From Candidatus Nealsonbacteria bacterium (GTDB lineage: Bacteria; Patescibacteriota; Minisyncoccia; Minisyncoccales; GWA2-38-27): a DNA stretch of 64,000 nucleotides. Location of the stretch: contig JAUWWC010000001.1 of the NCBI GenBank assembly GCA_030617105.1, forward strand, positions 4,759 through 68,758, read 5' to 3'. Shown here piece by piece: positions 4,999 to 52,286 of the stretch. The notes below the pieces were generated by a model. That model was given only the letters and a program-made list of their open reading frames with translations. It did no database searches and was not told the origin of the DNA. How positions within the stretch are numbered: the stretch's first letter is position 1; the number at the start of each line of letters is the position of its first letter. The translations under genes and the position numbers were made by a program.

Positions 4999-5688
4999 AT
5001 GAAAAAACAAGTTATCATTATTCTTGGACCGCCTGGAGCAGGAAAAGGCACTCAAGCCGAGCTTTTAGCTGATAAGCTCAGCTTATATTACTTTGAGACA
5101 AGCAAGATATTAGAGCAGAAATTTAAAGAACCAGATAAGAATTCTATTGAGATTGAAGGAAAGAAATATGATGTTTTGAAAGAAAAGAAATTATGGGAAG
5201 ATGGCATTCTTTGCAGTCCTCCTTTTGTTAGTTATTTAGTAATGGAAAGAGTAAAAAAATTGGCAGGGGAGGGAGAAAGCTTAGTTTTGGCTGGATCTCC
5301 AAGAACCCTATATGAAGGAGAAAGGGTAACTCCTTTGTTAAAAGAGCTTTATGGGCCAGAAAATATTAAAGTGTTTTTGATTGATATTAGCGCTGAAGAA
5401 ACCATTTTTAGAAATACTCATAGAAGGATTTGCGAGTTGATGCGTCATCCAGTTTTGTATAACAAAGAAACAGAGAATCTAAAAATATGTTCTTTAGATG
5501 GTTCTAAATTAATCAGAAGAAAAGGATTAGACGATCCAGAAACTATTAAAGTTCGGCTCAAACAATATAGGGAAAGAACCTTTCCTTTGATTGAACTTTT
5601 TGGAAAACAAGGCATAAAAGTAAACAAAATCAATGGCGAACAATCAGTATCTGATGTTCACAAAGACATTCTAAAAGCAATTAGATGA
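4999..5688 (+). CDS. adk: adenylate kinase
   Basis: P-loop ILGPPGAGKGTQAELL; position after secY. Confidence 0.85.
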   Translation: MKKQVIIILGPPGAGKGTQAELLADKLSLYYFETSKILEQKFKEPDKNSIEIEGKKYDVLKEKKLWEDGILCSPPFVSYLVMERVKKLAGEGESLVLAGSPRTLYEGERVTPLLKELYGPENIKVFLIDISAEETIFRNTHRRICELMRHPVLYNKETENLKICSLDGSKLIRRKGLDDPETIKVRLKQYRERTFPLIELFGKQGIKVNKINGEQSVSDVHKDILKAIR

Positions 5689-17786: not shown

Positions 17787-18470
17787 ATGTTAAAAGAAAT
17801 TATTGATAAATATTATTTGGATAGGCAGAGGAATAAAGAACAGCGTCATTTTTATATCAGTGACGCTGGCAAGTGTTCTCGGGCAGTGTTTTTTAAATTT
17901 AAAAACGCTCCCAGAAAAGAAATGGGAGCAAATATCTTGAGATTATTTGATCATGGAGACCATATGCACAAGCTTATAATGAAGTCTTTATTAAGCACTA
18001 GAGATATTCATGTCGTGGCTTCTGAAGTAAATATTGCTCCACAAGAGATAATTTCAGGCAGAGCCGACGCCATAATTAGTGATGGAAAGCAACTCTATGT
18101 TTTAGACATTAAAAGCATGAATAGTATGATTTTCAGAAATTTGATACAGGCAAAAGAGGAAAACGTTGAGCAGCTTCAATTATACTTGCATTATTTTAAA
18201 ATACCTAAGGGAATCCTGCTTTATGTTGATAAAGATAAGTTAGAGCTGAAAGAGTTTATAGTAAGCTATAATCAAATCCAAGCAGAAAGTCTTTTGAAAC
18301 AGTTAACTGTTCTTAAAAAACAAATTGATTCTAACACTATTCCTTCACGTCTTGCCGATTATCCAGATGGTTGGCAGTGTAATTATTGCCAGTTTAGAGA
18401 AATCTGTGATATGGGAGCTCCAGATGAAATGAAATGGGACGATTTTAAACAAAAAATAGAGTCTCAATAA
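17787..18470 (+). CDS. Cas4-like / RecB-family PD-(D/E)xK nuclease with 4-Cys Fe-S cluster signature (DUF83-like), stand-alone
   Basis: N-terminal Cys (SDAGKCSR), GRADAII (motif II), VLDIKS (D-x-K), QLQLY (QxxxY), C-terminal CNYCQFREIC (Cx2Cx5C). Confidence 0.6.
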   Translation: MLKEIIDKYYLDRQRNKEQRHFYISDAGKCSRAVFFKFKNAPRKEMGANILRLFDHGDHMHKLIMKSLLSTRDIHVVASEVNIAPQEIISGRADAIISDGKQLYVLDIKSMNSMIFRNLIQAKEENVEQLQLYLHYFKIPKGILLYVDKDKLELKEFIVSYNQIQAESLLKQLTVLKKQIDSNTIPSRLADYPDGWQCNYCQFREICDMGAPDEMKWDDFKQKIESQ

Positions 18471-18660: not shown

Positions 18661-19623
18661 ATGGAAAAAAGAATAATGGCAAGAAATATTGCATGGTTTT
18701 GTGTTTTGCTTGCTGTATTAGGTAGTTTGATTTGGTTCAATAATCTTAGTATAGCTTTGCAATGGAATCCAAAAGCAGGTCATGGATTTGAATATCATGG
18801 TCCAATCTCTTATTTTGATCGTTTTGCAGTAGATTTTTCTACAGTTAGCACTCTTGTACCTTTTTTTGGGATGTGCCTTATTGCAAGAGGATTTTTCAGT
18901 ATTGCTAAAGCCAAAGAAAAGACTAATTGTTCAAAGGTCTTTCCATTTTTTGTGAATTACGAACGTATTATGGTTGCCTTAGGATTGATGGGAACGGTCT
19001 GGGGGCTTATTATGATTGGGTATTACCCATCTGAACAAGTCCAAATGTCACAGTTGATAAATTGTTTGAGAACCGCTCTTTATTCAACTTTAATTGCCTT
19101 GATTTGGGTGTTTCTTATTGTTATACCACTTAGATATAGTATGCAGCGAGCTTATAGAAGTATTTCTGGTTACCAGGTCTTAAAACCTAATGAGACTATT
19201 ATTTCCCTTTTAGGAGACCTCAGTTCAGCAGCTTCAGGCCTTACTGAGACCATAAATGAAACCAGTAGTACTTTTAGCCAGCTTAAGAATGAAGTCTCAG
19301 GAGCTAAAAAGGAATTTCAAGAAGTTGATAAGTTGATAGCAGAGATCAAAGGTAAGGCTGAAGGTGTATTTGATAAAGCTCAGGAGTCCTTTAACCAGAT
19401 AAGTTCTGGATCTCGGGCTTGGCAGCGAGCTGCAGAAAAACAGCAAAAAGCTGCTGAGGCGCAAGAAGCATTTTTCCAGCAATTAACCAATGAGTTGGAC
19501 AAAGTAATAAAAGAAAGGGATGAATTAAAAGGAAAATTAGACCAAACAAAACAAGAATTAGTTGAAGTAAAAAGCAAATTCCGTAGATTAAGGGATTTTG
19601 TTAGAGGAATAGTTGGAAAATAG
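18661..19623 (+). CDS. MotA/TolQ/ExbB-family proton-channel protein with ~165-aa C-terminal coiled-coil tail
   Basis: 4 hydrophobic segments; ALGLMGTVWGLIMIG matches TolQ/ExbB G-L-x-G-T-V-W-G signature; following TM resembles TolQ TM3; heptad-rich K/E tail. Confidence 0.6.
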   Translation: MEKRIMARNIAWFCVLLAVLGSLIWFNNLSIALQWNPKAGHGFEYHGPISYFDRFAVDFSTVSTLVPFFGMCLIARGFFSIAKAKEKTNCSKVFPFFVNYERIMVALGLMGTVWGLIMIGYYPSEQVQMSQLINCLRTALYSTLIALIWVFLIVIPLRYSMQRAYRSISGYQVLKPNETIISLLGDLSSAASGLTETINETSSTFSQLKNEVSGAKKEFQEVDKLIAEIKGKAEGVFDKAQESFNQISSGSRAWQRAAEKQQKAAEAQEAFFQQLTNELDKVIKERDELKGKLDQTKQELVEVKSKFRRLRDFVRGIVGK

Positions 19624-19636
19624 AAAGGAGCAAAAA

Positions 19637-20503
19637 ATGGAAGATTTATTAGAACGGGTAGGAACACTTTTTGGTGCTGAAAAAGAGGAAGAAGTGTCTA
19701 CGGCTGAAACTTTTGAGTTATTGTGTCAGATTGCTTTGGCTCTACTAATAATCTTTGTTATGGCTAATACTATTTTTAGAGGTAGAGCTCAGGCACAGAT
19801 TGATGAAAGTAGAGGTAGGCAAGGTGTTCTTGAAGATGAAAATAGAAGATTTAGACAAGCAGATCCAAATATTGCAAGCTATGAGAGAGCAATGATGGAT
19901 GTACAAAAACAGAAGCTTCTTTTGGCATTAGAAAAGATTGAAAATACCCTTCGTGATGATTTCGGGATTGATCATTTTGCACCAAAAGATCGCAGTACTC
20001 ATGAAAGTAAGTATTTAATGAACGATCTTCTTTCAGGGGAAAAAGTAATTAATGAGCGGTTTAAACAAGCTTGTATTATTGCTAAACAAGTTTTCTTAGA
20101 CAGAAAAAAATTGCGACAGAACTGGTGTGATAGGATACCTTTGGTTGAGCCAGGATTAGTATTTGATAGTACTCCAGAAAAACAATCAATTATTACAAAC
20201 CCTGAAGTTATAAGTCCGGAAAATGAAATATTGGTATTTCAGGAGATTGCTAATAGAATAGAAGGGATATATGCTGATTGTTGCGATATGCAGCGCATGG
20301 CCCTTTCTTATCTGCAGGAGTATTATTATGAACATACAGAATTACTAAAAGGAACTGAATTTGATAAGAACTTAAATAATGATGTATCTTCAGCATCAGA
20401 CAAGGAAAAACGAAGACTTATGTTGCAACGTAGTCAAGAATTGTATATGTATATAAAATCACTTTTTGAAAAACAGAATGTACCACTGCTTAGCGGAGTT
20501 TAA
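19637..20503 (+). CDS. single-pass membrane protein (N-in, TM aa about 25-45, ~240-aa C-terminal domain), candidate TolR/ExbD/MotB-like partner of the upstream channel
   Basis: Start at ATG 19637 with AAAGGAG SD, abutting stop of upstream gene; TM lacks canonical Asp but is preceded by Glu; topology only. Confidence 0.45.
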   Translation: MEDLLERVGTLFGAEKEEEVSTAETFELLCQIALALLIIFVMANTIFRGRAQAQIDESRGRQGVLEDENRRFRQADPNIASYERAMMDVQKQKLLLALEKIENTLRDDFGIDHFAPKDRSTHESKYLMNDLLSGEKVINERFKQACIIAKQVFLDRKKLRQNWCDRIPLVEPGLVFDSTPEKQSIITNPEVISPENEILVFQEIANRIEGIYADCCDMQRMALSYLQEYYYEHTELLKGTEFDKNLNNDVSSASDKEKRRLMLQRSQELYMYIKSLFEKQNVPLLSGV

Positions 20504-20536
20504 GCACGACGGTCATTAAGAAAGGAAGGTGCAAGA

Positions 20537-22885
20537 ATGAGATCCGCAAGAAAAAAACCTGTTATTACAATAGCTTTGTTTGTAGTTATCAGCGCCTTGC
20601 TCCCTGGAAGATTTTGCCTAGGGAGCAAGGGCGAATTATCAGCAAAAAAAGCTAATGCAAGATTGTATGCTAAGATGCATATTAATAAACTTTGCGAGCA
20701 AGCAAGAAAACAAGAAGTTGATGTTAATGATCTCTGTGAGAAAATGCTGCAGAATCCAGCTAAATATCAAAACAGAAGACAGGCCTGGGATAACTTAAAG
20801 CAGGAACAAACTCAGATGTTTACTGATTGGTATCAAAAGGAAGTGAAACTTGTTTTACAGGCAATTGACCGGAACTACTTTACTAAAGAAGAGCGAGATG
20901 CTTTTCTAAAACCTCTAGACGAAGTAGTTAAGGACTATCTTGATAAGAATTTTGGCAAAAGCCATACAGATGGAACAACAGTATTTGGCAAAGCAAGAAA
21001 AAAAGCTTATGAAAGCCAACTCAATAAGCTGACAAAAGATGTTTATCCCACAGAAAGCGAAGTTGATACAGCTGTGGCTAAAAGACAGCTCAATAACTTG
21101 CGGATTAAAATATTGAATCAGCTTATTAAAAAACAAAAAGAACCTGTTTTTTCAGAAAATGTAAGTACGCTTAGCAGCGATTTCGTTAATCCCATACTTG
21201 ACGATGCTAAAAAGCAATTAGAAAAACAAGGTTCAATTGTGACCGGTTCTTCTGGCGCTAGTTATGTTGTGCCGGAAGATATCAGGAATTTCATCAGCAG
21301 GGAGATTACTACTTATCAGAACAAGCTTAAGCAGGAAAAGCAGGGAAAAACAATAGCCAATAAGGTCTATAAGATGTTTCCTTCAGTTAAGAAGAAAGTT
21401 GATGATGAGGCAGGCAAAATCGCTATCAAAAGATTTCGCAATGCTATATCTGAAATGAATTTGTCAGTTGACAAGAAGGTTTTAAAAAAGCTGATAAGCG
21501 GGAGCTTATCAGTTCATGCTGACAAAGATAAAAGCTGGAGCACTTGCTTGAAACGTTTTCGACAAGATATTGTTAACAAAGCCATTGATAATCATGCAGT
21601 CAAGGCTCCAAAAGACAAACAATCTGATTTTCGCAACTTTCTGTCATCACTTATTTCAAACAGTGATCAATCTTGCAAAGATGCTATGAATAAACTGGTT
21701 GATAGAAGCTTGAAGCAGGAGTTTGATCGTATACGAAAAGAGATTGCTCAGCAGCAATTCAGAGATTTCTTTGGACCGCTTGAACAAGGTTCTTGGCCTT
21801 CTTCAGAAAAAGCAGATGAGCTGATTGACAAATGGTACAATAAATCAGTGAACATATCTGAATCTGAAGCTTTGAAAATGCCTGATGTTTCATCAAGGTC
21901 CTTTAATTCTAAAGACCTGCTTAAAGAGACCATTGAAATGGTTCGCGAAGCAGAAGAAGCAGGAATAAAAACAGGACTTGATGCTCTGAGGAGCCAGATG
22001 AGCACGGTTGAGAGACTTGAGTTTCAAGTCAAGAGCCAAATTAGAAATATGAGAGATCTCACTATTGAGAAGGTTATAGAGATTTACACACAAAAAGTAA
22101 ATTCATCTTGGTCTTCCAAGGATTATCCCCATCTTTTTACCCGAACTCAAAAGGAAATTAAAAGGCGAGCTAAGGATATTTTAGATTTAGAGATTGCTCG
22201 TCAGCGTCAGATTGCTAATGACAAAGCTAAAGCTGATAAAGCTCGAGCCGATGCTAAAGCCAGAGCTCAGCTTGAAGATAAAGGCAGGTCTGACATACTT
22301 GGCTTGGAAGATTCTGACAAGCCAGGAAAACCAGGTGGAGGAGGAGATCCTAATAAGTCAGGAAAACCAGGTGGTGGCACGCCTGATACTTTTGGCGGTC
22401 CTCCGGGGGGAAAAGGACCTGCAAAAGAACAAGAGGAACCGGGGGATCAAATGCCAGATGTTATTCTTGATTTTGGCTACGAAAGTGGAAAAGTTTATGC
22501 TGACATAATGTTTCCCAAAGAATCAAAAGACAAGCTTAGACTTTTTATGGATCTCAGTGTCAACCTTAATTCGTCTAACATGGTTATTGCTCGAAAGCTT
22601 TTTGCTGATTGGCTTAAAGACGCTGTCAAGAAAAGCAAAAAAGACCAGCAAGACATAAATTTCTATGTTTTTGCCCGAGTTTTTCACGGAAGTTCTGTGT
22701 TATACAGCATGGTTTATTATTTCAGAGAGTGCTTGATAAAAGCTTTAGAAGATACTGGTGATAAAAGAATAAAAATTCACTGGTATGACAGGCTTTTTTA
22801 TGGTTCTTCTGATATTGAGAAATACAGGGGTAAGCCTATTTTGCCTCCTAAGTTTGATAAAAAACTTATGCCGAGATTGGTATAA
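20537..22885 (+). CDS. large membrane-anchored or secreted protein with TolA/TonB-like architecture: N-terminal signal/anchor, ~600-aa K/E/A-rich alpha-helical region, Gly/Pro-rich spacer, ~150-aa C-terminal globular domain
   Basis: N-terminal hydrophobic segment; ANDKAKADKARADAKARAQ helical repeats; KPGKPGGGGDPNKSGKPGGGTPDTFGGPPGGKGP spacer. Confidence 0.5.
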   Translation: MRSARKKPVITIALFVVISALLPGRFCLGSKGELSAKKANARLYAKMHINKLCEQARKQEVDVNDLCEKMLQNPAKYQNRRQAWDNLKQEQTQMFTDWYQKEVKLVLQAIDRNYFTKEERDAFLKPLDEVVKDYLDKNFGKSHTDGTTVFGKARKKAYESQLNKLTKDVYPTESEVDTAVAKRQLNNLRIKILNQLIKKQKEPVFSENVSTLSSDFVNPILDDAKKQLEKQGSIVTGSSGASYVVPEDIRNFISREITTYQNKLKQEKQGKTIANKVYKMFPSVKKKVDDEAGKIAIKRFRNAISEMNLSVDKKVLKKLISGSLSVHADKDKSWSTCLKRFRQDIVNKAIDNHAVKAPKDKQSDFRNFLSSLISNSDQSCKDAMNKLVDRSLKQEFDRIRKEIAQQQFRDFFGPLEQGSWPSSEKADELIDKWYNKSVNISESEALKMPDVSSRSFNSKDLLKETIEMVREAEEAGIKTGLDALRSQMSTVERLEFQVKSQIRNMRDLTIEKVIEIYTQKVNSSWSSKDYPHLFTRTQKEIKRRAKDILDLEIARQRQIANDKAKADKARADAKARAQLEDKGRSDILGLEDSDKPGKPGGGGDPNKSGKPGGGTPDTFGGPPGGKGPAKEQEEPGDQMPDVILDFGYESGKVYADIMFPKESKDKLRLFMDLSVNLNSSNMVIARKLFADWLKDAVKKSKKDQQDINFYVFARVFHGSSVLYSMVYYFRECLIKALEDTGDKRIKIHWYDRLFYGSSDIEKYRGKPILPPKFDKKLMPRLV

Positions 22886-22890
22886 ATTCA

Positions 22891-22930
22891 AGGAGCTAAC
22901 TCTTAAAATAAGAGTTAAGCTCCTTTTTTC
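22891..22930 (+). terminator. rho-independent terminator (13-bp stem GGAGCTAACTCTT/AAGAGTTAAGCTCC + T-run)
   Basis: Read directly after stop at 22885. Confidence 0.7.
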
Positions 22931-23017
22931 TTGACAAAGTTATTTATAGGATGTTTAATGCAATAGAGGCAAGAAGGTCTTGTCTTTAGCACTTTAACAA
23001 TTGAAAGGAGACAGAAA
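22931..23017 (+). promoter_or_regulatory. conserved promoter + 5'-UTR hairpin element, copy 2 (TTGACA 22931-22936; hairpin GCAAGA-AGG-TCTTGT 22969-22983; AATTGAAAGGAG)
   Basis: Aligned by eye with copies 1 and 3. Confidence 0.5.
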
Positions 23018-24655
23018 ATGAATAAAAGAATTTTCTTGATAATTGTTATACTTTTTCAGATAGGAAAAGTTAGTGTAGCTAATTATCCGCCAAGAGTTAA
23101 AATTCAGAATCCAACAAGTGGTTCAAAATTTAAACTTGACGAAGAAATTGTTTTTAGAGGAATTGCAGTTGATTTAGAAGATGGAGAATTACCAGAAAAA
23201 AATCTTACTTGGACATCTGATTTAGATATTTATATTGGTCAAGGTAATTCATTGACCTATAAGGGTCTTTCAGTTGGTCCTCATATTGTTATGTTAACAG
23301 CATTTGATTCAGAGGGTTCTGTAGGCAGAGATTCAGTTTTTATTACAATACAAGACCCTAAGATCACTAAACCTATTGTTAAGAAACCCAAAAAGGAACC
23401 TAAAACTGGACCTGAAGGACCTAAACTTGAAGAGCTTGAACCAGGGGCGCCATCTATTGAATTTCTTTTTGTGCCTTCTTTTCGCAGTTTCGAAGATCTT
23501 ACAGGCAGAGTATTGAGTGCTGACCCTAATAATTTTGCTGTTGCTGTTTATATTATGAAAGATGGTCTTTGGTGGAGTAAGCGGGTAGGCAAGATTAATA
23601 GAGAGGGCAGATGGATTTGTGATATTACGACAGCTGAACGTGATGAAGTAGCGCTTAAAATCCTTGTCTATCTTGTTCCAAGCGATTTTAAACCCCCGTT
23701 AGCTTCTGGCAATTTTCAGCTTTCTCATGAATTAGAGAAAAATAGTGTAGCAAAAATAGAAGTACTTCGGAAAATAAGAATGCCCAAGGTAACGTTACAG
23801 TCAAAAAGGGAGCCAGAAATCAAGAAGATCCGCAAAAAGCCAGAACCTAAAGGTCCAATAGAGGCATTGGGAGAGCTTTTGATTCGGTTGCTGCCTAAAG
23901 AAAAGCAAACAACAGAGACTCTGAAAAGATATCTCCCTTTAGCAGTTGGCAACAAATGGACCTATCAGAGAACCGTTTACAAGAGCGATGAAGTTTTTCA
24001 TTACAGAAAGCAAATTATTGAGAAACCTGGCTGGAATAGTCCCCCTCGAGGAGCTGTCTATTTTACCCTCGGCCGGACAATAGAAAAGATGCCCCAGAGT
24101 TCTCTAGAGACATATAGCATTTCTAATTCTACTCTAACAGACAAATTTGCATCCTGGGACGTAGAAATTGAAGGGACTATTCCTAGAGATGGAAGATACT
24201 CCTCACTTTATATTAAAGAGGAGCCAAATGTTAAATGGCTTTATGTTGATGGAGGTGTTTGGGAACTAATGCAAGGTGAATATTTAGGCGCTGAGACCAT
24301 AAGTCAGACTTGGCTAGCGGTCTTAGAGCCAGGGATAATAATTTCTGACTCAGCAAAAGAAGGGGAGATACCTTTCTGGGCAATAGGAGCAGTTTTAATC
24401 CCAGAAAAAATCACTACCCCGGCTGGAAAATTCTCAAGCTGCTTGAAGAATTGCACTATGATTAGAGGTCAAAATTTGAAAGAAGTATTATTAAAAGATA
24501 TGCCTCCTGAGTATTCAGAACAGGAAGATGGTTTTGGAAACTTCACGACCATATCTTTTTATGCGGAAGATGTTGGCTTGATCAAAGAGGTTCAGTATAA
24601 CTCCAAAGGGGAACTTGTATATGAATTAGCGTTAATCGAATATAAGGTAAATTGA
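23018..24655 (+). CDS. secreted multi-domain protein (signal peptide; Ig-like N-domain; domain shared with the GH17-like protein; C-terminal domain shared with the downstream paralog)
   Basis: RGRVLSADPNNFAVAVYIM...WICDITT aligns with 25865 product; PLAVGNKWTY and YELAL motifs align with 24778 product. Confidence 0.55.
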   Translation: MNKRIFLIIVILFQIGKVSVANYPPRVKIQNPTSGSKFKLDEEIVFRGIAVDLEDGELPEKNLTWTSDLDIYIGQGNSLTYKGLSVGPHIVMLTAFDSEGSVGRDSVFITIQDPKITKPIVKKPKKEPKTGPEGPKLEELEPGAPSIEFLFVPSFRSFEDLTGRVLSADPNNFAVAVYIMKDGLWWSKRVGKINREGRWICDITTAERDEVALKILVYLVPSDFKPPLASGNFQLSHELEKNSVAKIEVLRKIRMPKVTLQSKREPEIKKIRKKPEPKGPIEALGELLIRLLPKEKQTTETLKRYLPLAVGNKWTYQRTVYKSDEVFHYRKQIIEKPGWNSPPRGAVYFTLGRTIEKMPQSSLETYSISNSTLTDKFASWDVEIEGTIPRDGRYSSLYIKEEPNVKWLYVDGGVWELMQGEYLGAETISQTWLAVLEPGIIISDSAKEGEIPFWAIGAVLIPEKITTPAGKFSSCLKNCTMIRGQNLKEVLLKDMPPEYSEQEDGFGNFTTISFYAEDVGLIKEVQYNSKGELVYELALIEYKVN

Positions 24656-24777
24656 AAGGAGCGGAAAATGATTAAGAGAATTTTTCAAAAGAAAGGAGGA
24701 TTGAAACGAAAAGGATTGTAATTGTTTTAGAGAAATAGAAACAGAAACCCTTTAGGAAAACATGAAAGGAGAAAAAA

Positions 24778-25731
24778 ATGAAGACTCTACTAAAAAATGT
24801 AAAGTTAGTTATTTTGGTTGTTTTTGTGGCTCTGGCTTCTTTATTCTTTTTTGAAAGAAAGCCTAGTGAGGCTTCTAACCAGCCAACTGAGATCAGGATG
24901 AAAGAGCGAAAGACAGTAGAGAAAGCTACCACTACTGAAAATTTTATCCCCGGTACCTATGATCCAAGATTACTTATGCCCCTAGCTCTTGGAAATAGCT
25001 GGACCTACGGTTGGAAAAGTGCTGCTGTATCGACCTTAAAAGAAGTAGAATCCAAAGATAAGGCAATTTTTAGGGGTCTAAGCTGGTACTCATTTGGTGG
25101 AAAGAGTGTGCTGGCCAGATGCTATGGCTATAAAGCAAAAGCCCATAAGGAAACTTACACCCTTATCCGACAGGATGGCGATCACTATTTCTTTACTATT
25201 TCTATTGATCCCAAGGTACCTTCAGAACAGATACGCGATGGCAGATTTGAAGATTCTGTTGAGAATTGCTGGACCTGGTGGGACCTTAGGCAAGGCTCTT
25301 ACGGTTCAATGGGAATGACTGAGTCCATAAAACGGAATTGGGGTATCCATAGAGATTATCTTCTTGGCAAACAAGCTGAATTGCCAGATGATTTTCCAGC
25401 AGACCACCGCAACGCTATTCACATTGAGTTTACAGAAGGTGAGTGGGGCGATAGTTGGTTGGAATTTGCTTATTCTAAAAATCCCTGTAGATATGTATAC
25501 AAAACCATGGGTAATGAAGTTAAGGTAGCTGCTGGAACATTCAAAAACTGTATTGAAGCGATTGAGAAGGTTCATAAGGATGCCGAAGAGAAAAGCCCCC
25601 TGGTCTGGGAGACCCATATATTCTGGGCTCCTGAGGTAGGCAAGGTCTGGGAATACCAGAGGCTTGCTGATGGTACCATAACCTATGAGTTGGAGCTCCT
25701 AAAATTTGTTCCAGCCCAAAAGAAAAAATAG
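24778..25731 (+). CDS. secreted protein, paralog of the C-terminal domain of the 23018 product
   Basis: Signal/TM at N-terminus; PLALGNSWTY...YELEL shared motifs. Confidence 0.55.
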   Translation: MKTLLKNVKLVILVVFVALASLFFFERKPSEASNQPTEIRMKERKTVEKATTTENFIPGTYDPRLLMPLALGNSWTYGWKSAAVSTLKEVESKDKAIFRGLSWYSFGGKSVLARCYGYKAKAHKETYTLIRQDGDHYFFTISIDPKVPSEQIRDGRFEDSVENCWTWWDLRQGSYGSMGMTESIKRNWGIHRDYLLGKQAELPDDFPADHRNAIHIEFTEGEWGDSWLEFAYSKNPCRYVYKTMGNEVKVAAGTFKNCIEAIEKVHKDAEEKSPLVWETHIFWAPEVGKVWEYQRLADGTITYELELLKFVPAQKKK

Positions 25732-25740
25732 GCAAAATAG

Positions 25741-25776
25741 GTGTCAGATTTATTTTCTGGCACCTCTTTTTTTCGC
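25741..25776 (+). terminator. rho-independent terminator (GGTGTCAG...CTGGCACC stem with one G-U, then T9)
   Basis: Read directly. Confidence 0.6.
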
Positions 25777-25864
25777 TTGACAAAGCATTGATAAGATATA
25801 TGCTATAAAAGAGAGATAAGGCGGTCTTATCTCAAGATTAAGAACCTTAAAAATTGAAAGGAGA
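25777..25864 (+). promoter_or_regulatory. conserved promoter + 5'-UTR hairpin element, copy 3 (TTGACA 25777-25782; hairpin GAGATAAG-GCGGT-CTTATCTC 25813-25833; AATTGAAAGGAG)
   Basis: Aligned by eye with copies 1 and 2. Confidence 0.5.
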
Positions 25865-27766
25865 TTGAAAATGGAAAAGAGAGTCTTTTTAATGATTGTT
25901 ACGATAGTGTTAGTTTTGAATTATTTTGTTCCTGTTGTATGTGGAGCAGAATCTGTGCCTGCAATCGGGCTCACTTATGTGCCGAAATATGGCAGTACTG
26001 AGAACTTGCGAGGCAGAGTATTAAATGCCAATTCTAAAGATTTTGCTGTTGCTGTTTATATTATGGTAGATCGTTTTTGGTGGACCAAGCCTTATTGGGA
26101 CAGCCCGATAACAGAAATTAATGATGATGGAACCTGGGTTTGTGATATTACCACTGGCGGTATTGACGAGACCGCCACCAGGATTGCTGCTTATCTTATT
26201 CCAGCTGATTACAAGCCTTCTTTGATCAGCTGGAATTTTCAGCTTCCTCAAGATCTGGAAGAGAAAGCTTTAGCAAAAGCAGAGGCAAGGCGGGATGTAT
26301 TAGGCAAAGTGTCGATAATACCTAGAGTTGAAGCAGAGTCCAAGATAGATATCAGGGAAAGAGATGTTGATAAACTGAAAGGTGTATGTTACGGACCTTT
26401 TCGTGATAATGAGAATCCTGATATGGGCATCCTTCCGTTTCTTGATGAGTTGAATCCTGATATTGGGTTTATTCCCAAGGTAGCCAGGGCAATTAGGACA
26501 TATGGTTGTACCAATACGCTTGGTAATATTCCTGCATTGTGCGAGAAAATTGCTATAGACTGCTATCCCGGGGCTTGGCTTGGTAAGTACAAAGCAGAAA
26601 ATAGAGAAGAAATTGAAAGTTTCATCCAGATTGCTAATCAGAACCTCAATTGTGTTAAAGCTCTAATTGTGGGAAATGAGGTTCTGCTGAGAGAAGATAT
26701 GACCGGGGAAGAGTTGATTTTCTACATCAGGGAACTGAAAAAAACAGGAGTTCCTGTGACAACCGCAGACATATGGAGAGTTTGGCTCATGCACCCAGAG
26801 CTTGCCGATGAGGTTGACTTTTTAATGGTTCATATCCATCCCTACTGGGAAGGAATATCAATAGGGGATGCTGCAAATTATGTTATACAGCGCTGGAATG
26901 CCATGAAGAAACGTTTTCCCGGCAAAAGGATTGTGATAGGTGAAACAGGATGGCCCTCTGAAGGTAAAACAATAGGTAAAGCCATAGCCAGTCCAGAAAA
27001 CCAGGCAAGATTTTTTAAAGAGTTTACTCAGTTAGCTGAAAAGGAACGGATTGAATACTTCTATTTTGAGCTATTTGATGAACTCTGGAAAGATAAATTT
27101 GAAGGTAAAGCTGGAGCTCATTGGGGGATCTACAATTCAGATGGTTCATTAAAAGATCATATGAAAGATCTGATTCCTACCCAAGCCCTCGAAGGGATTA
27201 GCCGGCCTCTAAGAGAAGTTGCTAAAGTTAAGGTCAGTGCTCCTCTTATTGTTTACAGGGATGCTGGTTCAGAAGAAAATAGCTTCCAGCCATCGGGTTG
27301 GATGGGTGATAGCGAGTGCATAGATTTGGACAAGGCCTGTGAGATAAACCCTTATGCTGGTAAGACCTGTATCCGTATTAGCTTCAAAGCTGCTCGATTC
27401 CTCTCCTGGGGTTGGGCTAGTATTTATTGGCAGTATCCTTTAAACAACTGGGGTAAATATCCTGGCTATGAGCTGTCAGGAGCTAACAAGCTTAGCTTCT
27501 GGGCTCGAGGCGAGAAAGGCAATGAAAAAGCAGAGTTTAAGACAGGAGGGATTAGGAGTTGGGTTCCAACAGAGTTCCGTCGCGATTCCTTTGGTCCTGT
27601 CTCTACTGGCGTCATGAAACTTACTCCAGAATGGAAAAAATATATCATTGACCTAAAAGGTAAAGACATGAGTAGTGTGATTGGCGGCTTTTGCTGGACA
27701 ACTAATCGTTGGTGGAATCCCAAAGGTTGCACGATTTACTTAGATGATATTCAGTTTGAACCATAA
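25865..27766 (+). CDS. secreted glycoside hydrolase family 17-like (beta-1,3-glucanase-like) protein with N-terminal domain paralogous to the 23018 product and a ~200-aa C-terminal probable carbohydrate-binding domain
   Basis: KGVCYGPF, LIVGNEVLL (acid/base Glu) and IGETGWPSEG (nucleophile Glu) GH17 motifs; signal peptide. Confidence 0.6.
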   Translation: MKMEKRVFLMIVTIVLVLNYFVPVVCGAESVPAIGLTYVPKYGSTENLRGRVLNANSKDFAVAVYIMVDRFWWTKPYWDSPITEINDDGTWVCDITTGGIDETATRIAAYLIPADYKPSLISWNFQLPQDLEEKALAKAEARRDVLGKVSIIPRVEAESKIDIRERDVDKLKGVCYGPFRDNENPDMGILPFLDELNPDIGFIPKVARAIRTYGCTNTLGNIPALCEKIAIDCYPGAWLGKYKAENREEIESFIQIANQNLNCVKALIVGNEVLLREDMTGEELIFYIRELKKTGVPVTTADIWRVWLMHPELADEVDFLMVHIHPYWEGISIGDAANYVIQRWNAMKKRFPGKRIVIGETGWPSEGKTIGKAIASPENQARFFKEFTQLAEKERIEYFYFELFDELWKDKFEGKAGAHWGIYNSDGSLKDHMKDLIPTQALEGISRPLREVAKVKVSAPLIVYRDAGSEENSFQPSGWMGDSECIDLDKACEINPYAGKTCIRISFKAARFLSWGWASIYWQYPLNNWGKYPGYELSGANKLSFWARGEKGNEKAEFKTGGIRSWVPTEFRRDSFGPVSTGVMKLTPEWKKYIIDLKGKDMSSVIGGFCWTTNRWWNPKGCTIYLDDIQFEP

Positions 27767-27773
27767 CAAAATA

Positions 27774-27806
27774 AAGCCCTCTTAGGATAATCCTTAGAGG
27801 GCTTTT
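27774..27806. terminator. bidirectional terminator between convergent genes (near-perfect 15-bp palindrome flanked by A-run and T-run)
   Basis: AAAGCCCTCTTAGGA-TAA-TCCTTAGAGGGCTTT read directly. Confidence 0.7.
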
Positions 27807-27846
27807 TATGTACTTATTTTAAGACTATATGTTTAACTTTAGCGAA

Positions 27847-29118
27847 TCAAGGAGTTAATTCTTCTGAAGTGTAAAGGTTCCCTTCAGATAAAATATATAG
27901 CTTTTTATTAGCCCAGAAGATTTTAGGTTCTTTAAACTCAGTCAGGTCAACTATATTTATTCTATCTCGGTCGTCGATTTCGACGACTTTTATTTTATCT
28001 CCAGCATTAAAGATTAAATAATGGTTTGTATACCAGAAAACATTATCAATTCTCTCTGAGAAACGTGTTATAAATAGTTTTTCTCCAGGTTCCTTTTGTG
28101 GCTGGTCATATTTCTTTTCTAAGAATAAAACCCAGATTTCATAATTATTGAAATAAGCCATTTTTCTTGAATCAGGAGAGAATTTGAGATCTTTAATTGG
28201 TTCAAAGAGTTTTTGGAAAGATTTTTTACTTTCATCAAAAATATATAAAATATCATTTTCTTCCAAGAGAATATGAGAGTTGGAAGCTCTGATTTTATAT
28301 TTTGTTTCTTGTTTAACCTCAAAAGGAATCAGATTTAATCTTTCTTGGTTTTTGAAAACAAAGCCAGCTATGTCAAGATAGTAAATATCTTTGTTAGAAA
28401 TAAAGAGGGTAATTACATTTTTCAGTTCTGGGGCAGGGTCCAAGAAGGCTTGTTCAGGCCATTCTAAAAAACCAATAGAGGTCAAAACAGGAGGACTTTT
28501 ATCTATATCTAAAACATAATAATTTATTGTTTCTTTAAGGCCAACTTTCAGCAAGATTTTTTTTGAATCTGGAGAAAATCTTATATCAAACAACTCTACT
28601 TCTTCTTTTGATATGTCTTCTTCATCAATGAGATGGCTTTTGACATTTTTATCTATTTCAAAAAGCTTTAAAGACCAGCCAGGGCTTTTTAAGATTATCT
28701 TTTTCTTGTCTGGAGAAAAGAAAAAGTCCCTTACCCCTTTTGTTATTATTGTAAAGCCTGGGTTTTCTGGGATTAAGACGATATTTTTTGCTTCAGTAGC
28801 CTCTCTTTTCCTTATTTCTAATGTTTTCTCCCACTTATGAAATCCTTGTTTTTTAACCTCCACCTTATATTCTTTAGCCAAGAGATTTTCAATAAGTACT
28901 GAGCCAAAGAAGAAGTCAGTTTTCTCTTTTAGTTCTCCATTAAGATAAATTTCAGCGCTCCGTGGCCAGACCTTGAAATAGAAAATTCCTGGCTGGGTGA
29001 TTTTTTTGGTTTCCCAGTCAAAACGCCAGCCCAGGCAATACAAAACAGCTAAAGGAGCAATAATTAGAAATAAAATTAACAAAGATAAAAATAGAATAGT
29101 CCGCGTTTTATAAGTCAT
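27847..29118 (-). CDS. membrane-anchored protein with PEGA-like domain and TolB-like beta-propeller repeats
   Basis: N-terminal TM; VWPRSAEIYLNGE...KVEVKKQGFHKWE PEGA-like; repeated FSPDSKK/FSPDSRK propeller-like motifs. Confidence 0.5.
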   Translation of the reverse strand: MTYKTRTILFLSLLILFLIIAPLAVLYCLGWRFDWETKKITQPGIFYFKVWPRSAEIYLNGELKEKTDFFFGSVLIENLLAKEYKVEVKKQGFHKWEKTLEIRKREATEAKNIVLIPENPGFTIITKGVRDFFFSPDKKKIILKSPGWSLKLFEIDKNVKSHLIDEEDISKEEVELFDIRFSPDSKKILLKVGLKETINYYVLDIDKSPPVLTSIGFLEWPEQAFLDPAPELKNVITLFISNKDIYYLDIAGFVFKNQERLNLIPFEVKQETKYKIRASNSHILLEENDILYIFDESKKSFQKLFEPIKDLKFSPDSRKMAYFNNYEIWVLFLEKKYDQPQKEPGEKLFITRFSERIDNVFWYTNHYLIFNAGDKIKVVEIDDRDRINIVDLTEFKEPKIFWANKKLYILSEGNLYTSEELTP

Positions 29119-51767: not shown

Positions 51768-52286
51768 ATGAAAGAGTCCCCAAAAATAAATAATAAACAA
51801 TCTAGATATATTCGCCCAACTTGGGATGAATATTTTCTGAGCTTATTAGAGCCTTTAGGAAGAAGGGGAACCTGTGATCGAGGTCGCAGCGGCGCTGTTA
51901 TTGTAAGCAAGGCTAATACAATTTTAGCCACAGGTTATGTGGGATCGCCGCCGGGTCAGCCGCATTGCGATGAAGTCGGCCATATGATGGTGAAGGTTAT
52001 TGACGAGGAGGGAAATCAGTCCCAGCACTGTGTAAGAACCCTGCATGCAGAAGAAAATGCCATTTTGCAGTGTGCTAAAGACGGGGTAAAGCTTGAGGGA
52101 GCAACAGTTTATTGCAAAATGGTACCTTGTTATAACTGCAGCATGAGAATAGTGCGCGTAGGTATAAAGAGGGTGGTAGCACAAAAAAGATACCACGCAG
52201 ATCAGTTGTCAGTGGAATTATTTAAAAGTGCCGGCGTTAAAATATCCATAGTTGATAACACAATGGAAAAATACGCCCGACAGTAA
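51768..52286 (+). CDS. dCMP deaminase / CMP-dCMP deaminase zinc-binding family
   Basis: HAEENAI ... PCYNCS zinc-binding motifs. Confidence 0.75.
   Translation: MKESPKINNKQSRYIRPTWDEYFLSLLEPLGRRGTCDRGRSGAVIVSKANTILATGYVGSPPGQPHCDEVGHMMVKVIDEEGNQSQHCVRTLHAEENAILQCAKDGVKLEGATVYCKMVPCYNCSMRIVRVGIKRVVAQKRYHADQLSVELFKSAGVKISIVDNTMEKYARQ

What the first reader, a model, noticed from the sequence alone, without database searches (positions are those of the whole stretch)
23018..27766. Paralogous secreted protein family ending in a GH17 beta-1,3-glucanase-like enzyme
The 23018 and 25865 products share a ~100-aa domain (RGRVL...FAVAVYIM...W.CDITT...YL.P.D.KP). The 23018 and 24778 products share a C-terminal domain (PLAxGNxWTY ... 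YELxL). The 25865 product adds a GH17 catalytic domain with both catalytic-Glu motifs (GNEV and ETGWPS) and a further C-terminal module. A beta-1,3-glucan-active secreted enzyme plus binding-domain paralogs in a putative episymbiont suggests host cell-wall or EPS interaction, and the genes are co-regulated with the motor-like module.
Basis: partly seen in the sequence, partly recalled or inferred. Interest (0 to 1): 0.55.

Follow-up and report, generated by a model that had tools for sequence, protein, structure and literature searches.

The report
Secreted GH17 glucanase in a motor-linked cassette
A tiny symbiotic-type bacterium (Candidatus Nealsonbacteria-like) encodes a genuine secreted family-17 beta-1,3-glucan enzyme plus two helper proteins built from shared uncharacterised modules, and this enzyme gene follows a MotA/ExbB-like membrane "motor" gene trio in every related locus that could be checked, a pairing I found no description of.

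Summary
Three + strand genes (A 23018-24655, B 24778-25731, C 25871-27766) encode proteins whose only hydrophobic segment is N-terminal.

- **Shared modules:** A and C share a ~110-aa module ("X", 44% identity, E=2e-32). A and B share a ~250-aa DUF3108-like module (hhalign 99.3%). B and C share nothing, so this is module shuffling rather than a whole-protein paralogue family.
- **C is a real GH17 enzyme:** Pfam PF00332 scores above threshold. The best PDB match is the Rhizomucor beta-1,3-glucanosyltransferase (E=7.5e-31; model TM 0.86, rmsd 2.0 Å). E272 (GNE) and E360 (ETGWPS) align with its proton donor and nucleophile and are invariant in 60 homologues. C also carries a widespread C-terminal jelly-roll that looks CBM4/9-like.
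- **Transcription:** in the window, strong terminator hairpins and separate promoter-like sites split the region into [trio], [A-B] and [C]. A single operon is therefore not supported.
- **Conserved neighbourhood:** a GH17 gene directly follows the MotA/ExbB-like–p296–p782 trio in all 11 loci with downstream sequence. These loci span GC 0.34-0.62 and at least seven different sets of flanking genes.

Hydrolase versus transglycosylase, the substrate source and the trio's role remain unresolved. The enzyme is ordinary; the cassette is not.

The parts
18661..19623 (+). MotA/ExbB-family membrane protein (320 aa) with a ~140-aa C-terminal coiled-coil tail; first gene of the conserved trio upstream of the GH17 gene
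   Evidence: Pfam MotA_ExbB 25.1 bits (GA 22.9). PADLOC ZorA2 E=2.3e-6. Homologues sit upstream of GH17 in L001, L002, L007, L008, L018-L021.
19613..20503 (+). p296: single-TM partner protein, second gene of the trio. Its TM helix has a conserved Gln/Asn where I expect the protonatable Asp of MotB/ExbD/TolR.
   Evidence: Alignment A9. No Pfam or NCBIfam hit. Homologues found.
20537..22885 (+). p782: N-terminally anchored or secreted, long helical Lys/Glu/Ala-rich region, Gly/Pro-rich linker, conserved C-terminal domain. Third gene of the trio.
   Evidence: Alignment A7. No family hit. Used to retrieve loci L017-L023.
22890..22931 (+). Intrinsic-terminator-like hairpin plus U-run directly after p782
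   Evidence: Fold -19.9 kcal/mol, z=-5.9, 0 of 200 shuffles as good. Sequence.
22930..23017 (+). Promoter-like CTTGACAAAG, 5' UTR with a small inverted repeat, and RBS AATTGAAAGGAGA of gene A. Paralogous to the region upstream of C.
   Evidence: 72 of 95 positions are identical to the upstream region of C.
23018..24655 (+). Gene A (545 aa): signal peptide (1-21), Ig-like domain (~22-112), X module (~145-252), DUF3108-like module (~298-545)
   Evidence: Only 13 relatives among 5.8 billion proteins.
24668..24721 (+). 17-codon relic ORF MIKRIFQKKGGLKRKGL with the same RBS context as A and C. Probably the remnant start of a once full-length Ig-X-DUF3108 paralogue whose C-terminal part is now gene B.
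   Evidence: The L001 orthologue is one Ig-X-DUF3108(B-type) reading frame. Inference.
24778..25731 (+). Gene B (317 aa): N-terminal hydrophobic signal or anchor (9-25) plus a DUF3108-like module (~56-313)
   Evidence: The family has 46 clusters among 1.84 billion representatives.
25739..25773 (+). Intrinsic-terminator-like hairpin plus U7 after gene B
   Evidence: Fold -15.5 kcal/mol, z=-7.8..
25776..25870 (+). Promoter-like CTTGACAAAG..TATGCT, 5' UTR inverted repeat and RBS of gene C
25871..27766 (+). Gene C (631 aa from ATG; residue numbers below use the 633-aa TTG reading): signal peptide, X module, GH17 (beta/alpha)8 barrel, C-terminal jelly-roll
25955..26299 (+). X module of C (residues ~31-145), a beta-sandwich with an invariant W..CDITT..D..A motif
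   Evidence: Model pLDDT about 80-96. Alignment A5. 97 further, mostly standalone, homologues without Pfam annotation.
26372..27199 (+). GH17 catalytic barrel (residues ~170-445). Proton donor E272 is codon 26678-26680; nucleophile E360 is codon 26942-26944.
27227..27763 (+). C-terminal beta-sandwich module (residues 455-633), CBM4/9 (CenC)-like by fold hints. No Pfam family.
   Evidence: Occurs as a standalone 192-aa secreted protein in L004.
27773..27810 (.). Bidirectional terminator-like hairpin between convergent gene C and the PEGA-domain gene
   Evidence: Fold -20.7 kcal/mol, z=-4.8..

Best explanation
Gene C encodes a Sec-exported, retaining family-17 glycoside hydrolase that acts on beta-1,3-glucan chains outside the cell. 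Its (beta/alpha)8 barrel uses E272 as acid/base and E360 as nucleophile, with a five-subsite cleft like those of RmBgt17A and MlGH17B. It is flanked by an N-terminal X beta-sandwich and a C-terminal CBM4/9-like jelly-roll. I consider endo-type depolymerisation of an external beta-1,3-glucan (laminarin- or curdlan-like material, or necromass) most likely, with some transglycosylation possible. Genes A (Ig-X-DUF3108-like) and B (DUF3108-like) are non-catalytic exported partners assembled from the same module pool. They are variable, dispensable add-ons that probably tether or present the enzyme or its substrate. C is the constant output component of a horizontally mobile four-gene cassette: MotA/ExbB-like channel with a coiled-coil tail, single-TM p296, envelope-spanning p782, and GH17. 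I infer that the Ig and X modules are cassette-specific adaptors that dock the enzyme and helpers to the extracytoplasmic parts of p296 or p782. Shown: the fold, the catalytic and subsite residues, module homology, export-type N-termini, and gene-neighbourhood conservation. Inferred: the substrate, hydrolysis versus transfer, docking, and any energy coupling.
For: GH17 assignment: Pfam PF00332 50.9 bits, above GA 28.2. phmmer against PDB gives 4wtp at E=7.5e-31 over residues 189-430, plus 6fcg and 8akp. The AlphaFold model has pLDDT 91. Foldseek against 4wtr/4wtp gives TM 0.86, rmsd 2.0 Å, 28% identity. E272 and E360 are invariant in 60 homologues. Mapping to RmBgt17A residues named in PMC11005184 gives E99=E272, E189=E360, W65=W238, R103=R276, W157=W328, E158=E329, F230=F401, E235=E406, and the MlGH17B-like W408/K409/E413.

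Export: each protein has a single N-terminal hydrophobic segment.

Modules. The C-terminal module also occurs as a standalone protein and gives ~165-180-column Foldseek matches to 'Carbohydrate-binding, CenC-like' phage proteins at E~1e-6.

Cassette: the trio is followed by GH17 in the window, L001, L002, L015 and L017 (all with murA/mreB flanks); L007; L008; the P0011 contig; L019; L020; and L021. In L019 and L020 the GH17 gene abuts or overlaps p782.

Module shuffling within the cassette: Ig-GH17 (L019, L020), X-GH17-Cterm (window), Ig-X-X-GH17 (P0030), Ig-X-DUF3108 (A), and a DUF3108-like gene downstream of GH17 in L007. The promoter and 5' UTR of A and C are ~75% identical.
Against: There is no biochemical evidence. 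The best structural relative is a transglycosylase, not a hydrolase, and two of its three proposed 'transferase' residues are kept (W328, E329) while the third is Leu (Y102 -> L275), so the reaction outcome is open. No beta-glucoside uptake or catabolism genes were seen among the window ORFs that were scanned; those checked are housekeeping genes. In the window, terminators and separate promoters separate the trio, A-B and C. One X-GH17-Cterm locus (L005/L006) lacks the trio. The same GH17+Cterm subfamily is common without the trio in Omnitrophota, Planctomycetota and other phyla. The p296 TM helix lacks the Asp I expect in MotB/ExbD/TolR partners. The binding or docking roles of X, Ig and DUF3108-like modules are untested, and the structure prediction of A failed (pLDDT 37).
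Confidence: 0.7

Rival explanations
1. C is mainly a beta-1,3-glucanosyltransferase that remodels a glucan made by the bacterium itself (sheath, capsule or EPS). In this reading the Tol/Ton-like trio is an envelope-maintenance machine, as suggested by the cell-envelope neighbours (PEGA protein, murA, mreB).
For: The closest solved relative is the transglycosylase RmBgt17A. W328 and E329, two residues tied to transfer, are conserved. In the Nealsonbacteria-type loci the cassette sits next to murA-mreB and a conserved PEGA protein. Nealsonbacteria cells show a thick sheath in cryo-EM (bioRxiv 10.1101/2022.04.20.488981).
Against: The third transfer-linked residue is Leu (Y102 -> L275), nearly invariant in the family. 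No glucan synthase was seen in the scanned parts of the window. In L007, L008, L019-L021 and the P0011 contig the flanks are unrelated to the envelope. The same GH17+Cterm subfamily occurs in degrader phyla, often with T9SS sorting domains.
Confidence: 0.15
2. C (with B) is a horizontally acquired, free-standing laminarinase-type scavenging enzyme, and its position next to the trio has no functional meaning.
For: B and C are GC3 outliers (0.40 and 0.37 against a window mean of 0.27, sd 0.044). C has its own promoter-like site and terminators. Trio-less homologues at 50-57% identity are abundant. L005/L006 carry X-GH17-Cterm without the trio.
Against: 11 of 11 trio loci with downstream sequence carry a GH17 directly after p782, across GC 0.34-0.62 and at least seven different flank sets. 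Genes abut or overlap in L019 and L020. The Ig and X modules are shared between the GH17 and the accessory proteins only within this cassette.
Confidence: 0.1
3. The cassette is a mobile biological-conflict or defence module (Zorya-like envelope sensor, or a mobile-element accessory). In this reading GH17 is an envelope-acting effector rather than a nutritional enzyme.
For: The MotA-like protein hits PADLOC ZorA2 (E=2.3e-6) and has a coiled-coil tail. The trio diverges very fast (31-56% identity between genomes whose MurA and MreB are 89-93% identical). Neighbours include a Cas4-like nuclease (window, L002, L018), CHAT-TPR (L007), MoxR-VWA-FGE-sulfatase (L019), a MazE-like gene (L008) and a serine recombinase plus exonuclease (L020). 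L020 is listed as a viral contig in IMG/VR.
Against: PADLOC gives no hit for p296, A, B or C, and only a weak restriction-enzyme hit for p782. All components except the MotA tail are extracytoplasmic, unlike the intracellular nuclease effectors I know from Zorya. The ZorB-type Asp and a peptidoglycan-binding domain were not found. In Nealsonbacteria the cassette sits in a stable core-gene position.
Confidence: 0.05

Closest known systems
RmBgt17A, GH17 beta-1,3-glucanosyltransferase of Rhizomucor miehei (PDB 4WTP/4WTR/4WTS)
   Same: Best sequence and structure match for the barrel (E=7.5e-31; TM 0.86, rmsd 2.0 Å). It has the same catalytic Glu pair and most subsite residues, and like C it lacks the plant-type aglycone subdomain.
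   Different: Identity is only 28%. RmBgt17A is a single-domain fungal enzyme. Its Tyr102 is Leu here, Asn152 is His, and the residue before the acid/base is Asn here (GNE, the usual clan GH-A pattern from my own knowledge) rather than Ser. C adds a signal peptide, the X module and a C-terminal jelly-roll.
Bacterial GH17 enzymes of marine Bacteroidota (FbGH17A endo-laminarinase, PDB 6FCG; MlGH17B transglycosylase; FbGH17B exo-glucanase)
   Same: C matches 6FCG (E=1.9e-10). It shares the MlGH17B W-K-x3-E motif (W408/K409/E413). These are secreted enzymes acting on laminarin.
   Different: Those enzymes sit in SusC/SusD polysaccharide utilisation loci of diderm bacteria. Here there is no Sus-like gene, a CPR host, different accessory modules, and a MotA/ExbB-like trio as the constant neighbour.
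Widespread 'GH17 + C-terminal module' proteins of Omnitrophota, Planctomycetota, Latescibacterota, Bacteroidota and others (annotated GH17 / exo-beta-1,3-glucanase)
   Same: 50-57% identity over the barrel plus the C-terminal module, about 73% of C.
   Different: They lack the X module. The one locus inspected (L016) lacks the trio. Many carry PKD, FlgD-Ig or T9SS sorting domains instead.
ExbB-ExbD-TonB / TolQ-TolR-TolA / MotAB / ZorAB stator-type complexes
   Same: The first trio gene passes Pfam MotA_ExbB and resembles ZorA in having a coiled-coil tail. It is followed by a single-TM protein and then a long anchored helical protein with a Gly/Pro-rich linker and a C-terminal domain, a TolA/TonB-like layout (inference from the sequences).
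   Different: No ExbD, MotB, OmpA, TonB_C or TolA profile hit. The partner TM helix has Gln/Asn instead of the expected Asp. I know of no outer-membrane target in CPR. A glycoside hydrolase as the fixed neighbour is not a feature of any of these systems as far as I know, and no paper in the library mentions the pair.
CBM4/CBM9 (CenC-like) carbohydrate-binding modules
   Same: The C-terminal module is a ~180-aa beta-sandwich ending in a ...IYLDDI.F strand. Foldseek matches CenC-like phage proteins. The best, non-significant, PDB profile hit is a CBM4-2 variant, 3jxs. It also occurs as a standalone protein and appended to a GH.
   Different: No Pfam CBM hit at E<=10. The PDB hit has E=0.8. Binding is untested.
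DUF3108 / DUF3108_like (PF21347)
   Same: The C-terminus of A scores 24.5 bits (GA 27), and 4 of 22 B-family members hit the profile at E<=0.01.
   Different: All scores are below threshold and cover only the last ~55 profile positions. The Pfam family itself has no known function.

Membership tests
Glycoside hydrolase family 17 (clan GH-A) | Sequence match to the family profile above the curated threshold | tested here: met
   PF00332 50.9 bits against GA 28.2, although only profile positions 225-303 are covered. All 120 listed homologues but one carry PF00332.
Glycoside hydrolase family 17 (clan GH-A) | (beta/alpha)8 barrel superposable on solved GH17 structures | tested here: met
   Model pLDDT 91. 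Foldseek top hits are 4wtr/4wtp (TM 0.86, rmsd 2.0 Å), then 6fcg, 8akp, 1ghs and 4hpg.
Glycoside hydrolase family 17 (clan GH-A) | Acid/base Glu after strand 4 (N-E motif) and nucleophile Glu at the end of strand 7, aligned with experimentally assigned residues | tested here: met
   E272 aligns with Glu99 and E360 with Glu189 of RmBgt17A (4wtr is the E->A mutant at that position). Both are invariant in 60 sequences.
Glycoside hydrolase family 17 (clan GH-A) | GH17 nucleophile signature (PROSITE-type pattern ...[STAG]-E-[STACVI]-G-[WY]-P-[STN]-x-[SAGQ], recalled from memory) | tested here: met
   KRIVIGETGWPSEG, residues 354-367, fits the pattern by eye. The pattern itself comes from memory, not from a tool.
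Glycoside hydrolase family 17 (clan GH-A) | Cleavage or transfer of beta-1,3-glucosidic bonds | not testable with these tools
   Only conserved subsite residues argue for it. An enzyme assay is needed.
GH17 transglycosylase subgroup (RmBgt17A / MlGH17B type) | Aglycone-site triad Tyr102, Trp157, Glu158 (RmBgt17A numbering), proposed to be needed for transfer | tested here: inconclusive
   W328 and E329 are present, while Tyr102 is Leu275, nearly invariant in this family.
CBM4/9 (CenC-like) carbohydrate-binding module | Profile match to a CBM family | tested here: not met
   No Pfam hit at E<=10. The PDB profile search's best hit is 3jxs at E=0.8.
CBM4/9 (CenC-like) carbohydrate-binding module | Beta-jelly-roll fold similar to known CBMs | tested here: inconclusive
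DUF3108-like (PF21347) | Profile match above the gathering score | tested here: not met
   A scores 22.1-24.5 bits against GA 27. B has no hit. 4 of 22 B-family members hit at E<=0.01.
MotA/ExbB/TolQ-type stator complex (the neighbouring trio) | MotA_ExbB channel subunit | tested here: met
   PF01618 25.1 bits against GA 22.9 for 18661-19623. Weak precomputed hits on the orthologues in L007 and the P0011 contig.
MotA/ExbB/TolQ-type stator complex (the neighbouring trio) | Single-TM partner with a conserved protonatable Asp in the TM helix (MotB/ExbD/TolR/ZorB; feature recalled from my own knowledge) | tested here: not met
   A single-TM partner is present, but the conserved polar residue is Gln or Asn in all nine sequences, and there is no ExbD, MotB or OmpA profile hit.
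Bacteroidota-type polysaccharide utilisation locus | SusC/SusD pair next to the glycoside hydrolase | tested here: not met
   No such genes appear in the window neighbourhood or in the related loci.
Zorya anti-phage system | ZorA plus ZorB plus ZorC/D or ZorE effector genes | tested here: not met
   Only a weak ZorA2 hit (E=2.3e-6). No ZorB, C, D or E hit for any neighbour.

The most novel reading that the evidence does not exclude
The MotA/ExbB-like channel, p296, p782 and the GH17 enzyme form a previously undescribed, horizontally mobile four-gene machine. In it a stator-type ion-driven complex is dedicated to an extracellular beta-1,3-glucan-active enzyme, for example by powering its presentation, release or processive action at the surface of an outer-membrane-less CPR cell. 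The Ig, X and DUF3108-like modules would serve as cassette-specific docking or helper parts.
Probability: 0.3. Interest if true: 0.75.

Novelty: new variant of a known kind. Interest (0 to 1): 0.55.

Why it matters
The enzyme alone would be a routine CAZyme annotation, although I found no paper discussing GH17 in CPR bacteria. The context is what matters. A glycoside hydrolase is the invariant partner of a stator-like MotA/ExbB trio across very different genomes, and the helper proteins are built from modules that have no Pfam family. If the link is functional, it would extend ion-motive-force-coupled envelope machines to extracellular glycan processing in bacteria that, as far as I know, lack an outer membrane. 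It would also give a concrete, testable handle on how ultra-small episymbionts or 'biomass recyclers' acquire sugars or interact with partner surfaces. Finally, it defines three uncharacterised domain families (X, the GH17 C-terminal module, and the B-type DUF3108-like module) that merit structural work.

Tried and rejected
- **Structure of A:** prediction from an 8-sequence alignment failed (pLDDT 37), so there is no fold assignment for the DUF3108-like module or for A's copy of X. No prediction jobs remained.
- **Pfam on isolated modules:** nothing at E<=10 for X or the C-terminal module, and only weak BiPBP_C/PKD hits for A's Ig-like domain.
- **NCBIfam:** nothing for A, B or C.
- **PADLOC:** nothing for A, B or C.
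- **PDB searches:** sequence or profile searches for X, the C-terminal module and the DUF3108-like module returned only chance-level hits.
- **Standalone X proteins:** I tested whether they sit next to MotA-like trios. They do not, so X is not exclusive to the cassette.
- **Cas4-like nuclease:** I tested whether it belongs to the cassette. It accompanies it only in the Nealsonbacteria-type loci.
- **Literature:** searches for GH17 in CPR/Patescibacteria, ExbB in Patescibacteria, and the Pfam pair Glyco_hydro_17 + MotA_ExbB found nothing relevant.
- **Viral contigs:** one hit, identical to L020. The X module was not found in viral contigs.
- **Rejected:** a lipoprotein reading of C, because the residues before Cys are V-V rather than a lipobox (by eye, inference).

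Full report

The three + strand ORFs exist as stated: A 23018-24655 (545 aa), B 24778-25731 (317 aa) and C 25865-27766 (633 aa from TTG). The likely start of C is ATG 25871. It is preceded by AATTGAAAGGAGA, the same ribosome-binding context found before A, and the identical database protein is 631 aa.

A and C share 141 aligned residues at 44% identity, E=2e-32. A and B share their C-terminal ~250 residues at 23% identity, E=1e-5. Family profiles raise this to hhalign probability 99.3%, E=3e-20. B and C share nothing.

HMMs built for the three modules hit only these three genes in the six-frame translation of the window. The quoted motifs, GNEV (270-273) and ETGWPS (360-365), are present. The one qualification is that this is a mosaic of shared modules, not a family of whole-protein paralogues.

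**2. The enzyme**

- **Profile match.** C passes Pfam GH17 (50.9 bits, gathering score 28.2), but only over the last quarter of that model.
- **Match to solved structures.** Comparison with solved structures covers most of the rest of the barrel. phmmer gives the Rhizomucor miehei beta-1,3-glucanosyltransferase RmBgt17A (4wtp) at E=7.5e-31 over residues 189-430. Next come the Formosa endo-laminarinase 6fcg and the Penicillium enzyme 8akp.
- **Model.** An AlphaFold model from a 60-sequence alignment has mean pLDDT 91. It shows three domains: a beta-sandwich (30-152), a (beta/alpha)8 barrel (170-445) and a second beta-sandwich (455-633).
- **Structural superposition.** Foldseek places 4wtr/4wtp first (TM 0.86 on the target, rmsd 2.0 Å, 28% identity). 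Other GH17 structures follow, mixed with other clan GH-A enzymes.
- **Catalytic residues.** E272 and E360 align with the RmBgt17A proton donor Glu99 and nucleophile Glu189, and are invariant in the 60-sequence alignment (residue roles from PMC11005184).
- **Subsite residues.** Most subsite residues listed in that paper are also kept: W65=W238, R103=R276, W157=W328, E158=E329, F230=F401, E235=E406. The W-K-x3-E motif of MlGH17B appears as W408/K409/E413.
- **Hydrolase or transferase.** Of the three residues proposed to favour transglycosylation, two are kept. Tyr102 is a nearly invariant Leu (L275). The sequence therefore cannot settle hydrolase versus transferase.

**3. Accessory modules**

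- **C-terminal module (455-633).** It accompanies the GH17 barrel in well over a thousand proteins from Omnitrophota, Planctomycetota, Latescibacterota, Bacteroidota and other phyla, at 50-57% identity to C over 73% of its length. It also occurs alone as a 192-aa secreted protein in an Auribacterota MAG. It has no Pfam family. The only hints to its fold class are a non-significant profile hit to a CBM4-2 variant (3jxs, E=0.8) and Foldseek matches of about 165-180 columns to phage proteins annotated 'Carbohydrate-binding, CenC-like' (E~1e-6). I treat it as CBM4/9-like, unproven.
- **X module.** This is a ~110-aa beta-sandwich with an invariant W..CDITT..D..A motif. It has no Pfam or PDB relative. 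A profile search found 97 further proteins, nearly all standalone 130-210-aa hypothetical proteins. The named sources were Patescibacteria, Paceibacterota and a Peptococcaceae genome. Their genomic contexts are varied and lack the motor genes.
- **A and B.** A has only 13 relatives among 5.8 billion proteins. B has 46 clusters among 1.84 billion representatives.
- **DUF3108-like module.** It reaches Pfam DUF3108_like only below threshold.
- **Ig-like domain of A.** It gives only weak BiPBP_C/PKD hits.
- **Export.** A, B and C each have one hydrophobic segment, at the N-terminus. This is consistent with Sec export (A and C have small-residue cleavage motifs) or, for B, a signal anchor. That reading is inference; SignalP was not available.

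**4. Organism and local evolution**

The syntenic relative L001/L003 is a Candidatus Nealsonbacteria MAG. The scanned parts of the window are housekeeping genes at GC ~0.35.

Between the window and L001, housekeeping proteins are far more similar than cassette proteins:

| Protein | Identity, window vs L001 |
|---|---|
| MreB | 93% |
| MurA | 89% |
| B | 89% |
| HolB | 86% |
| C | 75% |
| p782 | 56% |
| p296 | 39% |
| A | 36% |
| MotA-like | 31% |

B and C have the second and third highest GC3 of the 53 ORFs compared.

The accessory genes are in flux:

- In L001 the A-like gene is one reading frame, Ig-X-DUF3108(B-type). It is interrupted by an in-frame TAG at a position that is Gln or Lys in relatives (Gln, IDYQPP, in two of them).
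- In the window, the same B-type module stands alone as gene B. Upstream of it lies a 17-codon relic ORF (24668-24721, MIKRIF...) that keeps the A/C-type ribosome-binding context.
- L002, L015 and L017 have A but no B.
- P0030 is an Ig-X-X-GH17 fusion.

**5. Transcription signals**

Strong hairpins followed by U-runs lie directly after three genes:

| Position | Free energy | z-score |
|---|---|---|
| After p782 | -19.9 kcal/mol | -5.9 |
| After B | -15.5 kcal/mol | -7.8 |
| After C (bidirectional) | -20.7 kcal/mol | -4.8 |

The first two are each followed within a few bases by CTTGACAAAG. The A-B spacer is unstructured (z=0.3).

The 95 nt upstream of A and of C are about 75% identical, covering the -35 element, a small inverted repeat and the RBS.

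The sequence therefore predicts three units: [trio], [A-B] and [C]. A and C probably share their regulation. A single operon with the motor-like genes is not supported in this window.

**6. The neighbourhood**

This is the most interesting result. The gene at 18661-19623 passes Pfam MotA_ExbB (25.1 bits against 22.9) and weakly resembles ZorA, with a ~140-aa coiled-coil tail. It is followed by p296, which has one TM helix. Then comes p782, which has an N-terminal anchor, a long helical region, a Gly/Pro-rich linker and a conserved C-terminal domain. Neither p296 nor p782 has a family hit.

Starting from GH17 homologues, and independently from a p782 alignment, I collected every locus I could. 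In all 11 loci that contain the trio and extend downstream, a GH17 gene follows p782 directly, or after one or two A/B-like accessory genes:

| Loci | Distinguishing context |
|---|---|
| window, L001, L002, L015, L017 | murA/mreB flanks |
| L007 | GC 0.42; CHAT-TPR and solute-binding protein upstream; a DUF3108-like gene downstream |
| L008 | GC 0.57 |
| P0011 contig | CsrA and a class I aminoacyl-tRNA synthetase downstream |
| L019 | GC 0.445; MoxR-VWA-FGE-sulfatase upstream; Ig-GH17; GH76-like gene downstream |
| L020 | GC 0.62; Ig-GH17; serine recombinase next door; same DNA as an IMG/VR contig |
| L021 | GC 0.60; X-GH17 |

In L019 and L020 the GH17 gene abuts or overlaps p782.

Two observations limit the association. 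An Omnitrophica GH17+Cterm gene without X has no trio. One X-GH17-Cterm locus also lacks it (L005/L006). The association thus runs strongly from trio to GH17, and less strictly from GH17 to trio.

The N-terminal module of the cassette GH17 is either X or the same Ig-like domain that heads protein A (41-44% identity). This is why I infer that these modules are cassette-specific adaptors.

One caution: the p296 TM helix carries a conserved Gln or Asn, where I would expect the Asp of MotB/ExbD/TolR-type partners (the expectation is from my own knowledge). A canonical proton-driven stator is therefore not demonstrated.

**7. Interpretation**

- **Best supported.** C is an exported, retaining GH17 enzyme acting on beta-1,3-glucan, most likely depolymerising an external glucan. 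A and B are non-catalytic helpers. All three form the variable output end of a mobile MotA/ExbB-like cassette.
- **Nutritional reading.** Nealsonbacteria have been described as Methanothrix epibionts and biomass recyclers (bioRxiv 10.1101/2022.04.20.488981). That fits a scavenging role, but the paper does not mention glycoside hydrolases, and no sugar-uptake genes lie nearby among the ORFs scanned.
- **Rivals kept open.** These are self-glucan remodelling by transglycosylation, a coincidental neighbour acquired by horizontal transfer, and a conflict or mobile-element module.

**8. Novelty**

The GH17 barrel and its C-terminal module belong to a large, already annotated bacterial subfamily, so the enzyme itself is a new member of a known kind.

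Three things were not found described in the searchable literature:

- the X and B-type modules;
- GH17 in CPR bacteria;
- the fixed pairing of a stator-like trio with a glycoside hydrolase.

Overall I rate it a new variant of a known kind, of moderate interest. The upside depends on whether the cassette is a functional machine.

Noticed in passing
window 24668-24721: A 17-codon ORF (MIKRIFQKKGGLKRKGL) lies right after gene A. It has exactly the AATTGAAAGGAG ribosome-binding context of A and C and an A/C-like MxKRxF start. It looks like the relic start of a truncated paralogue whose C-terminal part is now gene B.
   Followed up: partly
L001 4643-6301 (in-frame TAG at 5318-5320): In the Nealsonbacteria MAG the two called genes (225 and 308 aa) are one Ig-X-DUF3108 reading frame. 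It is interrupted by a single TAG in the X module, at a position that is Gln or Lys in relatives (Gln, IDYQPP, in two of them). This could be a nonsense mutation, a sequencing error or read-through.
   Followed up: partly
window 19613-20503 and orthologues (alignment A9): The single TM helix of the MotA-partner protein p296 has a conserved Gln/Asn (LLxQ/N-I...LLIIF) where I expect the essential Asp of ExbD/TolR/MotB. The helix otherwise resembles the ExbD/TolR TM motif as I recall it.
   Followed up: partly
window 18661-22885 versus L001, L002, L007: The trio diverges very fast (MotA-like 31%, p296 39%, p782 56% between genomes whose MurA and MreB are 89-93% identical). The window's MotA-like protein is closer to that of the unrelated contig L007 (38%) than to its syntenic orthologue, which suggests cassette exchange or diversifying selection.
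   Followed up: partly
window 17787-18470: A Cas4-like PD-(D/E)XK nuclease (TIGR00372 E=1e-10, Pfam PDDEXK_1) lies between the ribosomal protein operon and the trio. It is conserved at this place in L002 and L018. I did not look for a CRISPR array. In L009 a PDDEXK_1 gene sits directly before a standalone X-module protein.
   Followed up: partly
L020 (= IMG/VR UViG_3300032046_006284, L023): One copy of the trio+GH17 cassette lies on a GC 0.62 contig that IMG/VR lists as viral. It is flanked by a large serine recombinase, an exonuclease VIII-like gene, a sigma factor and an endonuclease.
   Followed up: partly
L019 29-4919 and 10591-12294: Here the cassette is preceded by MoxR AAA, VWA and TPR/FGE-sulfatase genes (a layout that, from my own knowledge, resembles reported ternary conflict systems). 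It is followed by a weakly GH76-like 567-aa protein.
   Followed up: no
window 22926-23020 versus 25770-25873: The promoter and 5' UTR regions of A and C are about 75% identical over 95 nt, including CTTGACAAAG, a short inverted repeat and the RBS. The regulatory region was duplicated together with the gene start.
   Followed up: yes
window 27847-29118 (- strand): A 423-aa protein with an N-terminal TM segment, a weak PEGA domain and beta-propeller-like hits is convergent with C. It is conserved at this position in L001, L002, L015 and L017.
   Followed up: no
window 51768-52286: This 172-aa ORF has the highest GC and GC3 in the window (0.434 and 0.399, z about 2.5-2.9), similar to B and C. 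It was not examined.
   Followed up: no
window 53068-54693: A ThyX (Thy1) protein of 541 aa with two matched stretches, about twice the ThyX length I would expect. It may be a tandem-domain or fused form.
   Followed up: no
P0030, P0137: P0030 is an Ig-X-X-GH17 fusion with two X modules in tandem. P0137 joins an X module to an unrelated C-terminal domain. This shows that X is a mobile module.
   Followed up: partly
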